From: the human T2T-CHM13v2.0 reference genome, Homo sapiens | Reading direction: 5' to 3' (one strand) | Length of the DNA stretch: 64,000 nt | Assembly: GCF_009914755.1 (NCBI RefSeq) | Contig: NC_060932.1 | Shown: one piece after another, positions 2,951 through 62,317 of the stretch | Position numbering within the stretch: the stretch's first letter is position 1 | How the letters are laid out: every line of letters begins with the position of its first letter | Notes under the pieces: generated by a model | Told to the model about the DNA's origin: nothing | Seen by the model: only the letters and a program-made list of their open reading frames with translations | Database searches by the model: none | Program-made: the position numbers and the translations under genes

Positions 2951-4674
2951 CTGCCAGAAAGTCAGGATATTTTTTAAAAGTTCTAAAAGACTATAAAGGA
3001 GTACAACACAAAGATTGTTCAGTACACTTATTAATTTCCAGTGAAAAATATGCATGGAGCAGTCAAGAATATTTATGTTGGCTAGCTGCATGCACAGTCT
3101 TCTCTTGAAGAACGTCTACATTGGCAACCATATCACTATCAGACATGGTGTTTGTGAACATCAGGACATTCGTCTCTTGGGCAGTCCTCAAAAGGCACAC
3201 AGAATCTTGCATTTTCTCTACTTAGTGTAAATCATAAATCATCACCTTTCCATTATTTTGCAATTCACCTCACATTCTTTCCACTACAATTGCAAAGATG
3301 ATGGTTTTATTTCTATCAGTTAGAATACAGTTATATTTTCCAGGAGGACACTGACCATCTTGATTGAATTTGGGAACACCTGGCCTCTAGATAAGCCACA
3401 CATAATATACCCCTCACTCCCGGACAGCAGGCTTACAAGCTTCTGTGGCCCCAACTGACTGGTTCAGGTAGCTAATCTCATCAGATCTGTATTGATTCTG
3501 ATTATCTTCAATACAGAGTGGTTGGTTTATTATATCTGTGTCCAAAATATCTGAGGGTGCACATTTTTTTAGAGACTGTGGGTCTCCTGTACTGACCTCA
3601 TCTCATAACTAAGAATCACCATTTTTTAATATAGAAAAAATTAAAATATGCTAACAAGTCTGAATTTTGTTTTATAACAAATTTGTTATAAAACAAATTT
3701 GTACTGTACTGTTTTATAACAAATTTACAAACAGTTTTTCTTTTGCTAGAGGGAGATAAAATAAACCTCTTCACAGACCTATGGCCTTTAAAACACATAG
3801 GTCAGTTACCAGGGCTTCCTCAATAAATGTGAGCTTCCCAGGATTACATCCTATCTTACTTATTACTATATTCTGCACACCTATCAAGAAGGTTGGCACT
3901 TAACAGTTCTCAATGCACACCTAGAAACTGGATGCAACTAACTCCAGCCCCTGCCCAAATCAGCCATGTGGAGTTTCTCCACATTTTTTATAACCACCAA
4001 GAGAGCAAGCACTGGCGGACAGAGAGATGACACTAAAGAGGTACACTTATGGATTTTTTTTTAATCTCTGAAAAAAAAGAAAGAAAGGTATTATACAAAG
4101 CTGGACAGAATTTCTGTCTTAAAGTCAAGTGCCTAAGAGTATAAAGCCCTCCTATCTCAATAGTTTCATATCAGTTATTTTTCTTGAAGTAAGTAGGGAA
4201 ATTATCTAATTCTCATTTTATAGAAATAGAGAATACCAAATTTAACCAAGTTGATTCAAGTCACACAACTCATTGGTGGCATGGCTGGGACCAAAAACGA
4301 GGTCCCTGGCTATCGTTCCTTGTTTTATTCTATTAATAACATCCTGAGCAAGCAAATAAAGGGCTTGTAGAAGAGAGGCGATAAATGTGGTTGTAAGCAG
4401 TCAGGGTCTGCGCATTTTTGGCCTAAAGCACTTTCCATTAGTTGTGTGTAGCTGACTCACACTCTTAACTAACACTGGCTCCCCAACTGAACAAGCCAAC
4501 ATAACTGCAACTTGTTCTTTTTGCCTCTTACAGAACATTTATTTGAGGTAATCTCCAAACAGTCATCTGGGAAAAAAAAAATTTTTTGACTTTAAACAAA
4601 TCCTGCAAGCCTCTTGTTATCTCCAGTAGAGGTCTGGGCTGTCAGAAAGGGTACAAAATAAAATCCAACTTTGA

Positions 4675-44540: not shown

Positions 44541-46473
44541 TGTCATTCTTGTTTTGTTGTGCTTCACTTTATTGCAGGTATTAGTCTGTTTTCACACTGC
44601 AATAAAAAATACCTGAGACTGGGTAATTTATAAAGGAAATAATTTTAATTGACTCATGGTTCCACATAGCTGGGGTGGCCTCAGGAAACTTACAATCATG
44701 GCAAAAAGGGGAAACAAACATGTCCTTCTTCACAAGGCAGCAGGGGAGAGGAGTGCAAGTGAAGGGGGAAGAGCCCCTTATAAAACCATCAGATCTCATG
44801 AGAGCTCACTATTTTGAGAACAGCATGGGGAAAAGTGTCCCCATGATTCAATTACCTCCACCTGGTCTCTCCCTTGACATGTGGGGATTATGGGAGTTAT
44901 GGGAATTACAATTCAAGATGAGAATTTGGGTGGGGACAAAACAAAACCATATAATTGCACTTAGCAGATATGGCATTTTTTACAGATTGAATGTTTGTGT
45001 CAACTTTGCTTTGAGCATCTCTATTGGTGCCATTTGTTTTCCAATAACATGTGCTCTCTTTGTGTCTCTGTGTAACATTTTGGTAACTCTCACGATAGTT
45101 CAAACTTATTACTATTATTATATTTGTTATGGTGGTCTGTAATGAGTGATCCTTTTGTAATTGTTTTAGGGCAACACAAACTTCTCCCATATAAGACAGC
45201 AAATTTAATCAATAAATGTTGTGTGTGTTCTGACTGATCCACAGAGCAGCCCTTCCTTCATTTCTTTCACTCTCCTTGGACCTCCCTATTCCCTGAAACA
45301 CAACAATATTGAAATTAGGCCAATTAATTACACTACAATGGCCTCGAATTGTTCAACTGAAAGAGTCACACAGTTCTCACTTTAAATCAAATGCTAGAAA
45401 TGATTAGGTTTGGTGAGGAAGTTACATCAAAAGCTGAGATAGGCTAAAAGCTAGGCTTCTTTTACCAAACAGCCGATTTGTGAATGCAAACAAAAAGTTC
45501 TTGAAGAAAATTAAAAGTGCTACTTTAGTGAACATATGAATAATAAGAAAGTGAAACAGCCTGAATAATCATATGGAGAAAGTTTTAGTGGTCTGGATAG
45601 AAGATCAAATCAGCCATAACATTCCTTAAAGTCAAAGCCTAATCTAGAGTAAGGCCCTAATTCTCTTCAATTCTGTGAAGGCTGAGAGATGTGAAGAAGT
45701 TGCAGAAGAAACATTTGAAGATAGCAGAACCTGGTTCATAAAGTTTAAGAAGCTTCATAACATAAAAGTGCAGAGTGAAACATCAAGTGCTGATGGAGAA
45801 GCTGCAGCAAGCTATAGAGAAGATACAGCTAAGATCATTAATGAAGGCAGCTACCCAAGACAAGATTTTCTATGTAGACAGAACAGCTTTATAATGGAAG
45901 AAGATGCCATCTAAGGCTCTCATAACTAGAGAAAAGTCAATGCCTGGCTTCAAAGCTTCAAAAGATAGGCTGACTGTCTTGTGAAGGGCTGATGTAGTTG
46001 ATGACTTTAAGTTTAAGTCATTTACTATTCTGAAAACCCTAGGGTCTTTCAGAGTGATGCTAAACTACTCTGCCTGTGCTCTCTAAATGGATCAACAAAG
46101 CCTGGATGATGGTACATCTGTTTACAGCATAGTTTACTGGATATTTTTAGCCCACTGTTTAGACCTAATGCTCAGAAAAAAAAAAAAGTACTTTCAAAAT
46201 ATTACTACTCACTGACAAAGCATGTGGTCATCCAACAGCTCTGATTGAGATGTACAAGGAGGCTGATGTTATATTCACACCTGCTATCCAACATCTACTC
46301 TGCAGTGCATGGATCAAGGAATCATTTTGACTTCCGAGTCTAATTATTTAAAAAATACATTTTGTAAGGTTAGAGCTGCCATAGATAGTGATTCGTCTGA
46401 TGGATCTGGGCAAAGTAAATTGAATACCCTCTGGAAAGGATTCACCATTTTAGATACCATTAAGAACATCTAT
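44541..46473 (+). mobile_element. Tigger1 DNA transposon, 3'-truncated, with decayed pogo-like transposase
   Basis: Tigger1 5' sequence; ORF fragments ...[17 protein letters not shown]... (45675-45914) and MDQGII...WKGFTILD (46309-46527). Confidence 0.9.
44577..44954 (-). mobile_element. THE1C/D MaLR solo LTR inside Tigger1
   Basis: 5-bp TSD TTGCA at 44572-44576 and 44955-44959; CTTATAAAACCATCAGATCTCATGAGA motif. Confidence 0.9.
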
Positions 46474-46654
46474 GACATTTTTAGATGGGACATTTTACCT
46501 GTGTTTTGGAGGATGAACATGTGTTAATTTGGTGAAGAAGATTAAAGATGGAGTGGCAAACATTCCAGACAGAGGAAAAAGAATAACTAAGGGCTTACAT
46601 TAATTGAGCACTTACTATGTACCAAGATGTGTGCTAAGTGCCATATGGCACATT

Positions 46655-54475: not shown

Positions 54476-54852
<377 letters not shown>

Positions 54853-56509
54853 AAGTGCTTTTTTAATATTGCTTAGTCCTGGTTGGGTATAATCAAGAAA
54901 AACATCAGAGACCAAAGAAAAAGAGGGTTTCATTGAAGGAAATGTGATAAAAATGCTATAATACATCTCTGTCCTGGAGGCACTTGCTATCTAGATAGGT
55001 AGCATAATCATACTCAAAGAAAATACATTATTTAACAAAAATGTACAGCTACAAAATACAAAGTAAATACTTATAATACCATTGGGAGGGAGAGATAAAG
55101 AAAATTAATTTATTCACATCAATAGGAATATCAAAATACAAGAACTTTCCACTCATATACTTGTTCACCAAATAATCTTACTTAAATCTGATTTTAATTT
55201 AAACATTTTTTCTAATATACATTAATATTAGAGTTTCACCTTGCATTCTTCATTTGCAATGTTAATTATTTATTTTTCACTTATTGGAACACTATGCCCT
55301 CATAATCAAGTAATCTGTTGGTAAGTTTCACTATTTATTTCTGAAATCAGTGGATTGGCCTTATGTTTATCAGTTCTTCACGTGAGAAAGAGGAGATTGT
55401 TGGCAAAATCAAATAAAATACAGTGGCTCTGAGCCTCTACCTACTTCATTCAGGACCTTAACATTTGCTGTCTCTTCTCTTCCTCATTAACTGTGGAAAT
55501 CACAAAGGGGAGTGCTTAAAAGTGGTCTTTGAGCTACTGTCACCGCATGGGGTATTTGCGGCAGTTTTTTTCTCTCTTGTTTCAGTTTCTACTTTGTTGT
55601 GTCCACTGTATGAAGAGTGGCTTGAGTTATTCCCACCATTGCCAGTGCACCTCCTGTGTGAAGACAAATACCCACACCAGGATTAGAAGGGGGAAATCTA
55701 CTGAAATGGCAGTGGGGAGGGATGGAAAGAACATACCCAGGAAGGCTGGAGAAGAGGCAGAAGATGAAAGCGGAGCCTGTATCCTGTCTCAAGTGAGGAG
55801 ACAGGTTTATGAGATGGAGAGAGCACAGAAGGTGTTTTGAGAGAATTGTATTGTGCATGGGAGACCAAGAGTCACTGAAAACAACTCAAATTTTTGTTGT
55901 AATTTCTAAAAGAATGTTAAGGGGATACCTATTTTTAACCCATGTCAACATTTCTTAAATTTCTCTTTCTCAGAGCATTTCTTTTTTTTATTGAGGATAA
56001 CAATCTTTTGTCACATAGATGTTGTAAATATGTTTACATGAGTTTTATATGATATAAGCATACCTTAATTGTATCATATGAAATTGTTTATATTCATAAG
56101 TTTTATAATTTTTGATAATCAAACCTTTTAATTTTCTATTATATTTTAGTATGAAGCTTACAAATATGTTCCTTTTGCCAAAATTTATGTAAATATTTGC
56201 CCATATATTTCTAGTTCTTCTACTATTTCATGTTTATGCTTAATTCTTTAATCAGTTGATTTTACCCATCTCACAGTCATTCATAAGGTAACCCAATATT
56301 TCTTACAATTTTAAAAATTACTTTTATTACATACTAAAGATTTAAACACTCTAAACTGTATTTGGAGGATTATATTCTGCTTCTCTAACCAATCATTTAT
56401 TTTAGTACATGTATAATATTCGATTAATTTTTGTAGTTTTATAATATGTTATTTGGTGAAATAAACCCTCCTCAATCATTATTATTCCTCTCAACTTTTT
56501 CTTGTCCTT

Positions 56510-57069
56510 TTAAAAACATAGTGGTTAAATAAACATAACATAAAATTTGTAATTAACCGTTCTTGATGTGTACAATTCTGTGGTATTTAAGTACATTCAA
56601 AATATTGTGCAGCCATCACTTCTATTGGATTTGGATAAAAATCCAGAATATTTTCATCATCTCGGAAAGAAATCCTGTACCTATGAAGCAGTCACTCCTT
56701 TTTTCTGTCTCTCCTTAACCTGTGGCAACCACTAATCTACTTTCTGTCCCTAATGGATTTGCTTATGCAATTCCACTCCTAAAAGAATTGAATACAGGTA
56801 TTCAAATAGAAAGTCATAGTGTTCATAGAGGCACTAATCACACCTGCCAAAAAGTGGAAACAACCTAAATGTTTATCAACCCATCAACAAATGAACTAAA
56901 TTTGGTATATTCATACAATGGAATAGTATCCGATTATAGTAATGAAATGCTGATACACACCATTACATGGATGAACCTTGAAAACATTATGCTAAGTGAA
57001 ATGAGCCAGATACACAGAGAACAAATATTATATGATTCCACTCATAAGCAAATCCATTAGGGACAGAAA
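56510..57069. mobile_element. Rearranged L1MB: 3' end on - (56510-56767), upstream part flipped to + (56768-57069)
   Basis: Minus: GTACATTC...TTGTGCAGCCATCAC...GGCAACCACTAATCTACTTTCTGTC. Plus: TGGATGAACCTTGAAAACATTATGCTAAGTGAAA. The two parts overlap by an exact 27-bp inverted repeat. Confidence 0.85.
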
Positions 57070-57491
57070 AGATGTTGGATAGCAGGTATGAATATAATAT
57101 CAGCCTCCCCGTACATCTCAATCAGAGCTTTTGGATGACCACATGCTTGTCAATGAGTAGTAATATTTTGAAAGTACTTTTTTTTCTGAGCATTAGGTCT
57201 AAACAGTGGGCTAAAAATATCCAGTAAACTATGCTGTAAACAGATGTACCATCATCCAGGCTTTGTTGATCCATTTAGAGAGCACAGGCAGAGTAGTTTA
57301 GCATCACTCTGAAAGACCCTAGGGTTTTCAGAATGGTAAATGAGCACAGGCTTCAACTTAAAAGTCATCAACTACATCAGCCCTTCAGAAGAGAGTCAGC
57401 CTATCTTTTGAAGCTTTGAAGGCAGGCATTGACTTTTCTCTAGTTATGAGAGTCTTAGATGGCATCTTCTTCCAATATAAAGTTGTTCTGT
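57070..57491 (-). repeat. Inverted duplicate of Tigger1 segment 45878-46296
   Basis: Manual alignment: about 14 substitutions and 4 indels over about 420 bp; no transposon termini. Confidence 0.95.
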
Positions 57492-57700
<209 letters not shown>

Positions 57701-58430
57701 CCCCACAATTTGATACCACCTTTACTTCTGCCAGAATGGCCATAATGAAAAAGTGAAAAAACAGTAGATGTTGGTGTGGATGCAGGATCAGGGAACACTT
57801 CTACACTGCTGGTGGGAATGTAAGCTAGTAGAGCCACTGTGGCGAACAGTGTGGAGATTCCTTAAATAACTAAAAGTAGAACTACCATTTGATCGAGCAA
57901 TCCCACTACTATTGGGTATCTATCCAGGGGAAAAGAAGTCATTATACATAAAAGATACTTGCCCACGCATGTTTATAGCAGCACAATTCGCAATTGCAAA
58001 ATCATGGAATCCACCCAAATGCCCATCAATCAATGAATGGATAAAGAAACTGTAGTATATATATACATATATGATGCACTACTACTCAGCCACAAAAATC
58101 AATGAATTAATGGCATTTGCAGCGACCTGGCTGAGATTGGAGACTATTATTCTAAGTGAAGTAACTCAGGAATGGAAAACCAAACATCGTATGTTCTCAC
58201 TGATAGGTGGGAGCTAAGCTATAAGGATACAAAGGCATAAGAATGATATAGTGGACTTTGGGGACTTGGGGAGAAGCATGGAAAGGGGGTGAAGGATAAA
58301 AGACTACAAATATGGTGCAGTGTATACTGCTGGGTGCACCAAAATCTCACAAATCACCACTAAAGGGCTTACTCATATAACCAAATACCACCTGTACCCC
58401 AATAACTTATGGAAAAATTTTTAAAAAAGA
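57701..58430 (+). mobile_element. L1PB1-like 3' end
   Basis: GAGCTAAGCTAT...AAAGGCATAAGAATGAT...CACCTGTACCCCAATAACTTATGG. Confidence 0.85.
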
Positions 58431-60243
58431 AATGACTTTTAGAATCTCATCCAGTTTAGATCAGGGAAGTAAATAGATAAGAATGATTGCTTTGGAAGTG
58501 GAATCAAGAGAGAAAAAGGGAAGAGAAAATGAGGAGAAAAATCAATAGCACTTGTTTAAAGTGTCCCTTTTTTGTGTGTCTGTATTCACTAACACACATA
58601 GGAAGTAATATATTAAGTAGAACTGTAGTAATATGTGTCTTCCAGATTCTTCTGGTGCCATTAGAAGTTGCAAACAACTGGTGCTGTGCCTTTTTATGAG
58701 GCATTAAAATACCAAGCCACTGTAACCCTAGACATAGTCAAATATAAAAGGCACACATGATACTAACATTGCAGAGCTCCTGAATTTTGTTCTAGCATGC
58801 TCTTTTTTATTGACCAAAATTTTTTCTAATTATTATAGTTGGAAAAATGATTTTTAAATTTTAAATCTGCTATTTAGCTGAATTGTAATTTATGTAAGTA
58901 TAAATCTTTGGAAGAAGCATAAAGTCAGTACTTCTCTCTGAAATCACTATTATGTATCAAAAGTACTACATAAAAGGTATAATCATAAGAATTTTTCTAC
59001 CCAATTCAGTGCACCAAAGCAAGCAAAAATATTTATAAATTTAGAACTAAAATTATATTTCCTTAACTCAGATGAAGTAGAACAGTAAACACATCTAAGA
59101 CAAAAAGATAATTTCTTCTTTTGCATTATCTTTTTTTCTCACTCCTTCTCTCTCATGCACAAACACACACACACAATACATAGACAAACATACTTCCTAT
59201 TTAAAGATACATTTGCTGATTGTGATGTGTATTCTTTTTCACTACATCCCATATGTAGTTTTTATAAGGCAGCATTCCATCAGGAGATGCTTCATAGGAA
59301 GAAACAAAGAATGCTAGAATCACATAAGTTTGACAAGCACTATTTGCCATATCACATTCTTGGAAATTCACAGTGCATGTTAGTGTAGTGAAGCCTTCCA
59401 GAGATCCTGAAGAAAAAAAAATTGTTTAAATTGGAATATCCCAAATTTAGTTGACCACAGGCCATTTTTATACCTAATACCTAACACAACACCATAGCAG
59501 TCAGGACATGCTTAGTCATGTCATAATAACAAGAAGCCCCAAAACATCAGTGACTTGCATTGTAAAGTTTGTTTCTCACTTAATACTACATATCTAATGT
59601 GGTTCTGAGGAAAGTTTTGCTTACTGTATCCACTCAGATAATCAGGTGAGTTGTTTTTTCCTTTCACAATCACTACAACAATGAGAAAGAAATTCAGGAA
59701 ATCATGCACTACTTTTAAAACTTCCCCCAAGTGACATTACTCTTTTTTTTTTTTTTTTTTTTGTCAATCCCATTGGCCAAGGTGAATAATATTATTGCCA
59801 TGCTCAACTTCAGTGTCAGAAGGGAAGGCTAATTCTACCATGTGTTCTGAAGAGAGGGAGTCAAATATTTTTGGTGAACAGCAGGACTACCACAAATAAC
59901 ACTTTAGAAAATGCTGGGCTGAAGAAACAGCTTTGGCACCTGTTATTCAATCACTCAGTGAACATACAAAATAAATACTCCTGGCAAGATAATAATCCTG
60001 GGCTTTGCCCAGTCGTCAGCATTGCCAACTTGGCTTCTTGGCTTTACCAGCTGCATAATGTGGTCTGTTCCAAGGGAGTTGCCCCATCTGTGACTCAAAT
60101 ACTGCCCTTTGCTGATGTTGCTTCCTGGCAAATAATGGCCATTATACTAACATAAAGCAGTTGTTCACCCATCTCCCTTGATACCAGCATTCCAACATAC
60201 CTTATCGCCTCTAAACCTATTTTAGTTCTTATCTCATAGTCTC

Positions 60244-60626
60244 TGTCTTAGTGTATTCAACCTGCTATAGCAAAATATCATAAACTGGGTGACTTATAAA
60301 CAACGGGAATTTATTTCTCACAGTTCTGGAGGCTGGGAAATCCAAGATCAGGGCACCAGCAGACTTGGCATTTTTGACATTCAGTATAGACCTGGCCCAT
60401 TTCCTGGTTCATAGATGTCACCTTCCCACTGTGTCCTCACATGGTGAAAGGGGCATGGCAGCTCTCTGGGACCTCTTTTATAAGGGCACTAATCCCATTT
60501 ATGAGGGCTCTGCCCTCATGATCTAATAATTACTTCCCAAAGACCCCATTTATTAATACCATCACCTTGTGGGTTAGCATTTCAACATATGAATTTTGGG
60601 GTACCACGAACATTCAGATCATAGCA
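60244..60626 (-). mobile_element. MLT1A0-like MaLR solo LTR
   Basis: TGTCTTAGT...TTTATTTCTCACAGTTCTGGAGGCTGGGAA...CATTCAGATCATAGCA. Confidence 0.85.
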
Positions 60627-62317
60627 ATCTCCAAAGTTATTTTCAGAAAGGAGCTATTAATATATTACTTATCAGAGACCAATATATTGTAGTGGCCTCC
60701 ATCCATGACAAATTAGACATGTACAAAATAATATTAAATAATAAAAGGGACTGCTTCCTTATCTCTAAAATTTTTAGATCTAGGAAAAGACGTTTTCAAA
60801 GCAGAGCTTGCTCCAAGAGAGGAAAGGACGCCATGTAGGTGGGGTTTGATTTTGCTTCCCTGGCTTCAACTCCCCTGCTTCTGGATTAATCTCCCTTGCG
60901 CACTTGGATTTCTTATATTACTTTGCCTATAATAAAGGTTCTTTGGATAAAAAAATATATTTTACCTATTGACTAAATGTTCCTTAAGGTCCTTTTCAAT
61001 CTTGACATTTTAACATACTCTGATCACCAATAAGAAGAGATATTTGACATTCAGTATAGACAAGACAAATTGTCAGTTCAGCTGATGTGAGTTGCTTTCC
61101 CCAGGTTAACCATGGTTAGCCCAGTTTTAGTATGCCTTTCTGATGACAAAGAGGATAACATGCTCCCAAGAATATGAAACTGTGCTGATTTCTTTACTTT
61201 TGTGTCTGCTCTGTGACACTAGTTATTCTCCAAAAATTTGAGGAGCTTAGCTTATACCCCTAAAGAGACATAAACCACTGGAGTCAAACTAAAGACACAC
61301 AGCTGGTGCAGAATGTGTACAAGGTCCAGACGCGCCATGTGCAGAGGTGACCCCTGAACTCTAGTGCAGTCTTTTCAGCTCCACCTAAGTCTGACTTAGG
61401 TGATGACACAAAGAATCTGAAGGATCCTGGGATCAACCCCTTACTGAGGACTGGAGGCTTAAATCCACTTAGTTTGAACAATGAAGCTTGGTATTTGGAT
61501 GTTCTTCACTTCCCATTCCTCCTAATAGTTCTTTTAAATGAGGCCACCAAAGTTTACTATAAAGATCATGAAAGGGTTTTATCCAAGTGATAATTCTGAT
61601 ATGTTGAGAATACTACTGGAGATTGGATAAGGAAAGGATTCTGAGGTCAAGCACAGACCCAGCAGAAAATAATATGATTATTCATTAGTGATGTCAGCAT
61701 GGCAGTGTTCATGCCACATATTTGTCATCCTGAGGTCCTTCTGATCCCATCACAAACTTTTGTCATCAAAATAATGACCTTCAAAGCAGTCCCTTTGTGT
61801 TTCCTATAACTGGAAGAGAAATGAATGATGTTCAAAGCATTAACACTCAAAATCCAGAGCAATAATAATGGATGTTCAACAAGGTGTCACAAATTGAATC
61901 TCATACTACTGTTTTGTGTTATTTTACCTTTGAATGGAGAATACATACTCTGTGTTTTTCACCTTTACTAAAAATATATAACTGGTATCATTTCTGTTGA
62001 TTTCATGAGAATTCACATTTATTCCTTCAAAGTTAAACAGGAATGCATTGATGTTCTCTTCCCATTATTTTCTTTAATAAGTTTTTATTTTTAGGAATAA
62101 AAATTTACAGGATAAAATGTAAGACCATGGTAATATAGTTAGAGATAAATATTATTACTCAATAAATATTGATTATTTAGAGGCCTTCCATCTGCACAAT
62201 TTACAAGCCCAAAGAGTAATCCCAATCAGAAAGCTGAGATTAAACCAGTTTGCTTCTGTTAGGTTAATCAGTCAATCTACTCTAAAAATGAAACTTCCAG
62301 ATATGAGGATTTATATT

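What the first reader, a model, noticed from the sequence alone, without database searches (positions are those of the whole stretch)
56741..57495. Fossil three-junction template-switching rearrangement (local inversion, remote templated insert, deletion)
Seen: (J1, 56767/56768) a minus-strand L1MB flips to plus strand for about 300 bp and ends in CATAAGCAAATCCATTAGGGACAGAAA (57043-57069), the exact reverse complement of 56741-56767. (J2, 57069/57070) it jumps to the inverted Tigger1 copy; both donor templates share AGTAGAT at this point (L1 CAGAAAGTAGAT, Tigger CAGAGTAGAT) and the product lacks 2 nt of it. (J3, 57491/57492) it jumps into the middle of an AluS left arm with GT microhomology, so the Alu 5' part and the upstream L1PB are missing. 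Inference: a single FoSTeS/MMBIR-type event that postdates the AluS insertion.
Basis: partly seen in the sequence, partly recalled or inferred. Interest (0 to 1): 0.8.

Follow-up and report, generated by a model that had tools for sequence, protein, structure and literature searches.

The report
Fossil template-switch rearrangement among old repeats
A stretch of human chromosome 8 made of old jumping-gene remnants was rebuilt long after they landed, by flipping about 300 bases, pasting in a 422-base copy of DNA from 11 kb away and probably losing other DNA; this is a clear but ordinary relic of a known kind of DNA copying error.

Summary
A perfect 27-nt inverted repeat (56741-56767 / 57043-57069) brackets a flipped 302-bp L1 piece. 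57070-57491 is an inverted copy of window 45878-46296. An Alu starts at its position ~100 at 57492.

The flip is not L1 twin priming. The L1 arms are only 75-78% like their family majority, so arms as old as the L1 would stay 27/27 identical with P about 1e-5 to 4e-3.

The Tigger piece is a late local copy. It is 96.4% identical to the donor (15/414 substitutions), against 83% at most for any other scored genomic copy. Copy and donor share 48 derived columns, against 9 and 14 private ones.

The Alu is older per lineage (9/163 non-CpG differences against about 1.8%) and has no target-site duplication, so its 5' part and the upstream L1 were probably deleted.

Best reading (0.6): one DNA-templated serial template-switch event (FoSTeS/MMBIR type) in a catarrhine or hominoid ancestor. 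No primate outgroup could be reached, so "one event" and the ancestral state remain untested.

This is a new member of a known kind, intergenic, with no sign of function. Interest is low to moderate.

The parts
44955..46475 (+). Donor element: a 1.5-kb remnant of a Tigger-family (pogo-type DNA transposon) copy, continuous on both sides of the copied stretch
Evidence: At least 8 of 28 other genomic copies cover 44955-46475 without a break. One of 14 stop-to-stop ORF fragments (46267-46524) gives a weak DDE_1 match, E 0.0028, 17.7 bits, below the 22-bit cut-off.
45878..46296 (+). Template of the remote insert, still in place
56505..56767 (-). L1 3'-end piece in its original minus orientation, ending at J1
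   Evidence: Matches L1 3' ends elsewhere at 69-74% over full-length hits. It is 78.4% identical (192/245) to the majority of 58 copies.
56741..56767 (.). Left arm of the perfect 27-nt inverted repeat
56768..57069 (+). Flipped L1 piece: the part of the same L1 just 5' of the retained piece, plus a 27-nt overlap with it
   Evidence: The best other genomic match is only 77%, so no donor exists elsewhere.
57043..57069 (.). Right arm of the 27-nt inverted repeat, ending at J2
57070..57491 (-). 422-bp templated insert, an inverted copy of 45878-46296
   Evidence: 96.4% identical in substitutions, 15/414. 48 derived columns are shared with the donor, against 9 private to the copy and 14 private to the donor. 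The next-best genomic copy is 83%.
57492..57691 (+). Alu from about its position 100 to its A-tail; the 5' ~99 nt are missing and there is no target-site duplication
57692..58430 (+). 3' part of a younger plus-strand L1 into which the Alu had probably inserted; its upstream part is missing
   Evidence: 28 of 39 other genomic L1 copies start to align at window 57692. The 3' end was read by eye. Plus-strand L1 homology covers 57769-58202.

Best explanation
This is a fossil of one DNA-templated complex rearrangement of the serial template-switch kind (FoSTeS/MMBIR type). It happened in a catarrhine or hominoid ancestor, long after the three repeats involved had inserted.

Inferred course:
1. A growing DNA strand copied the minus-strand L1 up to 56767.
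2. It left its template and re-primed on the opposite strand about 275 nt ahead.
3. It copied back 302 nt, overshooting its own departure point by 27 nt. This made the perfect inverted repeat.
4. It re-primed 11 kb away on a Tigger-family element, at a patch where both templates read AGTAGAT.
5. It copied 422 nt there, in inverted orientation.
6. It returned, through a GT microhomology, into an Alu that sat inside a younger L1.
7. Everything between the L1 piece and Alu position ~100 was lost.

Shown: the three junctions, the copied nature and late date of the Tigger piece, the youth of the inverted repeat, and the greater age of the Alu. Inferred: the order of the steps, that they form one event, that copying was replicative, and the size and content of the deletion. 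The product has no sign of function.
For: (1) Late local copy. 57070-57491 against 46296-45878 has 15 substitutions in 414 aligned bases (96.4%). Against the majority of 28 other genomic copies there are 48 shared-derived columns, 9 private to the copy, 14 private to the donor and 5 where all three differ. Genome-wide the donor is the best match at 94%. The next is 83%, among 40 scored of 3570 candidates.

(2) The donor lies inside a continuous 1.5-kb element (44955-46475). The copy is an isolated internal fragment with no more Tigger homology around it.

(3) The inverted repeat is young. The L1 arms are 78.4% (192/245) and 74.7% (224/300) identical to the majority of 58 family copies. Their best other genomic matches are 77% or less. 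Arms as old as the L1 would stay 27/27 identical with P about 1e-5 at 20% divergence and 4e-3 at 10%. The 27-mer differs from the family majority by 3 substitutions and a 1-nt insertion, and both arms carry all of them. Zero differences in 27 fits the age of the Tigger copy (P 0.37 at 3.6% divergence).

(4) The Alu is older than the event. It has 9/163 non-CpG differences (5.5%, CI 2.6-10.2%) and has lost 5 of 9 CpGs, against a majority that is biased in its favour. The copied piece has about 1.8% per lineage (CI 1.0-3.0%). Fisher P is 0.02.

(5) J3 is not a retrotransposition end. The sequence after the A-tail has no second copy nearby; up to 3 mismatches it matches only itself and one chance-level site at 1279. 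On chr6 a full-length Alu sits at the same A-rich L1 site, with upstream L1 and a target-site duplication. That shows what the intact arrangement looks like.

(6) Junctions. At J2 both breakpoints fall inside a shared 7-mer; 1604 of 200000 random position pairs (0.8%) do as well. J3 has 2 nt of microhomology.

(7) Both templates lie close by (0.3 kb and 11 kb) and both copies are inverted. Passages of PMC8421209 and PMC7954356 describe this for MMBIR-type inserts.
Against: No outgroup genome could be examined, so one event against several is untested.

The J2 product is not the simple microhomology product. It lacks GT, and at the exact join there is no shared base. This needs either extension from a 3' end with two mismatches (CAGA paired, AA unpaired) or a later 2-bp deletion.

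The 2-nt microhomology at J3 is expected by chance in 16% of random joins. J1 cannot be scored because its second template is lost.

No L1 sequence 5' of the flipped piece survives nearby in minus orientation. The L1 may therefore have ended there, which is also what twin priming predicts.

The template of the flipped 275 nt no longer exists in its original orientation, so a cut-and-paste inversion cannot be excluded for that piece.

The L1 divergence was measured against a mixed set of 58 copies and includes subfamily differences, so the P values are rough.
Confidence: 0.6

Rival explanations
1. Several separate events. First a small inversion with a short inverted duplication inside the old L1. 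Later, one or more deletions were patched with a copy of the Tigger element. The three junctions lie on different branches of the primate tree.
For: Nothing in a single genome ties the junctions to one moment. The 27-nt arm could be the remnant of a longer inverted duplication cut back by a later deletion. Zero differences in 27 only limits the arms to less than about 10.5% pairwise divergence, which is a wide window.
Against: It needs two or three rare complex events within 750 bp. J2 joins two young copied pieces directly, and both breakpoints lie inside a shared 7-mer. The ages of J1 and of the insert are compatible.
Confidence: 0.2
2. One event by breakage and rejoining rather than by replication. 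Several double-strand breaks occurred. The 302-bp L1 fragment, cut with a 27-nt stagger that was filled in, was religated upside down. The remaining gap was bridged by a patch copied from the Tigger element (synthesis-dependent repair or polymerase-theta end joining). The fragment in between was lost.
For: The flipped piece replaces its template, as in an in-place inversion. PMC8421209 (passage) says such inversions can arise by either route. J2 has no shared base at the exact join. From recall, staggered breaks are known to give inverted duplications at the two ends of an inversion.
Against: The Tigger donor is intact, so at least that piece was copied and not moved. The model needs three breaks, a 27-nt fill-in and a copied patch.
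Confidence: 0.1
3. The flipped L1 piece is an ordinary 5' inversion made by twin priming when the L1 inserted. The 27-nt overlap is the usual small duplication at the inversion point. The Tigger piece and the Alu junction came later and are unrelated.
For: The geometry is exactly that of twin priming: an inverted 5' segment contiguous in L1 coordinates with the 3' segment, with a short overlap (mechanism described in PMC2912911, passages). No L1 sequence 5' of the flipped piece is present nearby. From recall, 5'-inverted L1s are common.
Against: 27/27 identity in an element about 22-25% from its family majority has P about 1e-5 to 4e-3. All 4 differences of the 27-mer from the family majority are shared by both arms and none is private. 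No target-site duplication is visible. The young Tigger copy would have to begin exactly at the old L1 boundary.
Confidence: 0.04
4. The Tigger piece is an RNA-derived patch: a transcript of the donor region was reverse-transcribed into a break (class 2 templated sequence insertion). Alternatively, it is an independent Tigger copy homogenised by gene conversion with the element 11 kb away.
For: Templated patches from distant regions are known in human genomes (abstract of PMC5110952). Two inverted copies 11 kb apart could exchange sequence.
Against: The piece has no poly-A and no target-site duplication. It lies beside a locally templated inverted piece. The donor is only 11 kb away on the same chromosome. 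Gene conversion would need a resident Tigger copy, but no further Tigger homology flanks the piece on either side of the L1 and Alu.
Confidence: 0.04

Closest known systems
FoSTeS/MMBIR-type complex genomic rearrangements and MMBIR-linked templated insertions, including 'in-place inversions' (PMC8421209, passages read; the founding FoSTeS and MMBIR papers are recalled, not read)
   Same: Several junctions in cis. Inverted copies of nearby templates, with the donor retained. Short microhomology or imperfect 'microhomeology' at the junctions. An inverted piece that replaces its own template.
   Different: This one is a fixed evolutionary relic in a gene desert, not a disease or tumour allele. 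The copied tracts are long (302 and 422 nt). One template lies 11 kb away, whereas that paper's search tool looks within 100 bp. The J2 product skips 2 nt of the shared 7-mer.
Short-range template switch events in great-ape genomes, four-point model (PMC7954356, passages read; PMC5453318, search listing only)
   Same: A reverse-complement copy of adjacent sequence creates a perfect inverted repeat in the descendant. The event is detectable as an evolutionary change.
   Different: In that catalogue the copied tract has a median of 12 nt and a maximum of 128 nt, and the strand returns next to its departure point. Here the tract is 302 nt, and the strand goes on to a second template 11 kb away before returning across a deletion.
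L1 5' inversion by twin priming (PMC2912911, passages read)
   Same: An inverted 5' segment contiguous with the 3' segment, with a short overlap at the inversion point.
   Different: The overlap is perfectly conserved in a heavily decayed element. There is no target-site duplication. The outer end abuts a young copied insert.
Class 2 templated sequence insertion polymorphisms (PMC5110952, abstract read)
   Same: A patch templated from elsewhere fills a break, without a target-site duplication or poly-A.
   Different: The donor is 11 kb away on the same chromosome. The patch is joined to a second, locally templated inverted piece. An RNA origin is not indicated.

Membership tests
FoSTeS/MMBIR-type complex rearrangement | Two or more breakpoint junctions in cis joining segments that are not neighbours in the ancestral sequence | tested here: met
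   Three junctions lie within 725 bp: 56767/56768, 57069/57070 and 57491/57492.
FoSTeS/MMBIR-type complex rearrangement | Inserted segments are copies, with the template retained | tested here: met
   The donor 45878-46296 is intact inside a continuous element. The 27-mer is present twice. The template of the other 275 flipped nt is not retained.
FoSTeS/MMBIR-type complex rearrangement | Microhomology or microhomeology at the junctions | tested here: inconclusive
   J3 has 2 nt (GT); chance gives 2 nt or more in 16% of joins. J2 has a shared 7-mer spanning both breakpoints (P 0.008), but the product lacks 2 nt of it and there is no shared base at the join. J1 has lost its template.
FoSTeS/MMBIR-type complex rearrangement | Templates lie close to the breakpoint, often in inverted orientation | tested here: met
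   The templates are 0.3 kb and 11 kb away, and both copies are inverted.
FoSTeS/MMBIR-type complex rearrangement | All junctions arise in a single event | not testable with these tools
   This needs orthologous loci of other primates, and none is held. The own-genome search states 'no relatives here'.
L1 twin-priming 5' inversion | Inverted 5' segment contiguous in L1 coordinates with the 3' segment, with a small overlap or gap | tested here: met
   There is a 27-nt overlap.
L1 twin-priming 5' inversion | The inversion dates from the insertion, so the duplicated overlap has decayed like the rest of the element | tested here: not met
   The arms are 27/27 identical while the element is 75-78% identical to its family majority; P is 1e-5 to 4e-3.
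L1 twin-priming 5' inversion | Target-site duplication flanking the whole insertion | tested here: inconclusive
   None was seen by eye. The right flank is a young insert, and a duplication of that age would be decayed anyway.
Short-range template switch (four-point model) | After the reverse-complement copy the strand returns next to its departure point | tested here: not met
   The copy is followed by a second template 11 kb away and then a deletion.
5'-truncated Alu retrotransposition (as the origin of J3) | Target-site duplication on both sides of the truncated Alu | tested here: not met
   The 16 nt after the A-tail have no second copy nearby. The chr6 comparison locus shows the duplication that would be expected.

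The most novel reading that the evidence does not exclude
The three junctions are one germline MMBIR-type event fixed in the hominoid stem. It has unusually long copied tracts (302 and 422 nt) and a template 11 kb away. It also has a join (J2) made by extending a 3' end that paired over CAGA and carried two unpaired bases. That would make it a naturally dated example of mismatch-tolerant priming by a repair polymerase. It would also suggest that scans limited to tracts of about 100 nt miss a class of evolutionary template-switch events.
Probability: 0.4. Interest if true: 0.4.

Novelty: new member of a known kind. Interest (0 to 1): 0.3.

Why it matters
This is a clean example that can be dated from the sequence itself. 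It shows that multi-step template switching with tracts of several hundred bases and a template 11 kb away has been fixed in the human lineage, outside disease and cancer.

It also shows how to tell such an event from L1 twin priming in a single genome. Compare the decay of the duplicated overlap, and the number of derived sites shared with the donor, against the decay of the repeat family.

The locus itself is intergenic, about 80 kb from RUNX1T1 by the hub's gene table, with no sign of function. The value lies in method and illustration rather than biology.

Tried and rejected
- **Alu age from the window's own Alus.** The majority of 11 copies had decayed CpGs and gave inflated counts (21 non-CpG and 7 CpG differences). 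I replaced it with the majority of 20 genomic Alus. These came from the first 28 of 39 non-self hits; I skipped one near neighbour of a chosen hit and seven hits that did not cover the whole query.
- **Naming the repeats by protein domains.** Of 14 stop-to-stop ORF fragments, only one gave a sub-threshold DDE_1 match. The family names therefore remain untested.
- **Rest of the old L1 (5' of the flipped piece), searched to the right of the rearrangement.** No minus-strand L1 was found in 57070-61500. The only minus-strand hits there match Alus in the flanks of the comparison loci, plus one single-locus flank repeat at 60429-60628.
- **More Tigger homology around the insert.** None was found, which speaks against gene conversion with a resident copy.
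- **A paralogue that spans the Alu/L1 junction.** The one hit, on chr6, is an independent full-length Alu at the same L1 site. It is not a copy of this locus.
- **Literature on this locus.** A search for RUNX1T1 with 'template switching' and 'inverted duplication' listed nothing about it (8 of 149 papers listed). I made no other search for the locus.
- **A 16-nt deletion at the start of the 27-mer in the flipped arm.** I considered it as a possible fourth junction. Its placement is ambiguous by 4 nt, and two other family copies have independent deletions at the same spot. I left it open.

Full report
**Observation**

Arms 56741-56767 and 57043-57069 are 27/27 complementary, 275 nt apart. This is the longest perfect inverted repeat with arms up to 2 kb apart in the whole window; 30 shuffles of the window gave at most 18 nt.

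Left of 56767 the sequence matches L1 3' ends on the minus strand. 56768-57069 matches the adjoining upstream part of L1 on the plus strand. 57070-57491 matches window 46296-45878 in reverse, 93.7% over 427 columns including gaps. From 57492 an Alu runs from about its position 100 to its A-tail. From 57692 a younger plus-strand L1 follows; 28 of 39 other L1 copies begin to align at exactly that base.

No repeat library is held. The only protein-level support is a sub-threshold DDE_1 match in 1 of 14 ORF fragments.

**The remote insert is a late copy of the neighbour**

Genome-wide, the best match of 57070-57491 is the element 11 kb upstream, at 94%. The next of 40 scored matches (3570 candidates) reaches 83%.

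I aligned the piece and its donor with 28 other genomic copies:

| Column class | Columns |
|---|---|
| All the same | 351 |
| Shared-derived (copy = donor, differs from majority) | 48 |
| Private to the copy | 9 |
| Private to the donor | 14 |
| All three differ | 5 |
| Gap in both | 2 |

In substitutions the two differ at 15 of 414 sites, about seven on each side. Most of the decay of this Tigger copy therefore happened before the piece was copied.

The donor lies inside a continuous 1.5-kb element (44955-46475, covered by at least 8 of 28 loci). The insert is an isolated internal fragment with no further Tigger homology around it. This argues against gene conversion with a resident copy.

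**The flip is young, so it is not twin priming**

The geometry alone is exactly that of an L1 5' inversion by twin priming (PMC2912911, passages), and that was my first rival. But the L1 is old. Its arms are 78.4% (192/245) and 74.7% (224/300) identical to the majority of 58 family copies. The second figure is slightly low because the aligner misplaced the last 27 nt. The best other genomic matches are 77% or less.

If the overlap dated from the insertion, both arms should have decayed. The chance of 27/27 identity is about 1e-5 at 20% divergence, 2e-4 at 15% and 4e-3 at 10%. The 27-mer differs from the family majority by three substitutions and a 1-nt insertion. Both arms carry all four and neither has a private change. 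Zero differences in 27 fits the age of the Tigger copy (P 0.37 at 3.6%) and caps the pairwise divergence of the arms at about 10.5%.

**The Alu is older, and J3 looks like a deletion edge**

I compared the Alu piece with the majority of the 20 most similar genomic Alus. That yardstick is biased in its favour. Even so, the piece has 9/163 non-CpG differences (5.5%, CI 2.6-10.2%) and has lost 5 of 9 CpGs. The copied Tigger piece has about 1.8% per lineage (CI 1.0-3.0%); Fisher P is 0.02.

The 16 nt after the A-tail have no second copy nearby, so the Alu has no target-site duplication. On chr6 a full-length Alu sits at the same A-rich L1 site, flanked by a duplication of AAAACCA(T/C)AATGTG with L1 continuing upstream. 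That is what the intact state here probably looked like. The first ~99 nt of the Alu, its 5' duplication and the upstream L1 are missing here.

**Junction anatomy**

- **J2.** The L1 template reads GGGACAGAAA|GTAGATTAGT and the donor reads ACTGCAGAGT|AGATGTTGGA. Both breakpoints fall inside a shared AGTAGAT; only 1604 of 200000 random position pairs (0.8%) do as well. Yet the product, GGGACAGAAA|AGATGTTGGA, lacks GT and has no shared base at the join. Two readings fit, and both are inference. In one, the strand end paired over CAGA and was extended despite two unpaired A's. In the other, a clean 7-nt join later lost 2 bp.
- **J3.** It has a 2-nt GT microhomology, expected by chance in 16% of joins.
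- **J1.** It cannot be scored because the second template is gone.

**Mechanism**

The intact donor and the doubled 27-mer show that DNA was copied, not only cut and rejoined. Both copies are inverted and their templates lie 0.3 and 11 kb away. The simplest account is serial template switching of one growing strand: forward to 56767, back for 302 nt on the opposite strand, 422 nt on the Tigger element, then forward again from the Alu. The interval in between is lost. I give this 0.6.

The rivals:

| Rival | Confidence |
|---|---|
| The same junctions made in separate events | 0.2 |
| One event by multiple breaks with a staggered cut and a copied patch | 0.1 |
| Twin priming plus later unrelated events | 0.04 |
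| An RNA-derived patch, or gene conversion | 0.04 |

Points against my reading are these. No outgroup was available. The J2 product is non-canonical. The microhomology evidence is weak. No minus-strand L1 5' of the flipped piece survives nearby, which twin priming also predicts.

**Dating (inference)**

Copy and donor differ by 3.6% (CI 2.0-5.9%). From recall, that is roughly the human-orangutan to human-macaque range. I therefore place the event in a catarrhine or hominoid ancestor.

**Comparison with what is known**

Complex rearrangements by template switching, templated inverted inserts and 'in-place inversions' are well described (PMC8421209, passages). Thousands of short template switches have been catalogued in great apes, with a median tract of 12 nt and a maximum of 128 nt (PMC7954356, passages). 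Patches templated from distant regions are known as polymorphisms (PMC5110952, abstract).

This locus is a larger, multi-step, fixed example of the same kind. It is a new member, not a new kind. A search for the locus in print found nothing specific.

**Limits**

- The own-genome tool holds no primate relatives.
- The majority sequences come from copies chosen for similarity to the query, so divergences are approximate.

Noticed in passing
window 57692-57712, and L111 (G000:C6:92091400-92091900): The same A-rich site of L1 ORF2 (…AAATCAAAACCACAATG…) carries an independent Alu in the same orientation on chr6. That one is full-length, with a target-site duplication. The site looks like a recurrent Alu landing spot.
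   Followed up: partly
window 57038-57047: The flipped L1 arm lacks 16 nt relative to the family majority, right at the start of the 27-nt repeat. The placement is ambiguous by 4 nt because of a repeated ATA. It could predate the event or mark an extra slip or the initiating lesion. Two other family copies (L035, L036) have independent 13-nt deletions at the same spot.
   Followed up: partly
window 46010-46030 (donor) against 57343-57362 (copy): Since the copy was made, the donor has lost 8 bp and gained several neighbouring substitutions. The copy still matches the family majority there. This is a small mutation cluster in the donor lineage.
   Followed up: no
window 57110-57111: The copy carries a tandem TT-to-CC change (CCCCG against CCTTG in the donor and the family majority), which creates a CpG.
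   Followed up: no
window 54576-54719 and 57509-57652: An Alu 2.8 kb upstream lies inverted relative to the truncated Alu (144 nt, 76% complementary). The similarity is too low and the distance too great to argue for a hairpin trigger, but I note it as a possible source of fork trouble.
   Followed up: no
window 3666-3697: A 24-nt perfect inverted repeat with overlapping arms (a palindrome, TTTGTTTTATAACAAATTTGTTAT…). It is the second-longest perfect inverted repeat in the window.
   Followed up: no
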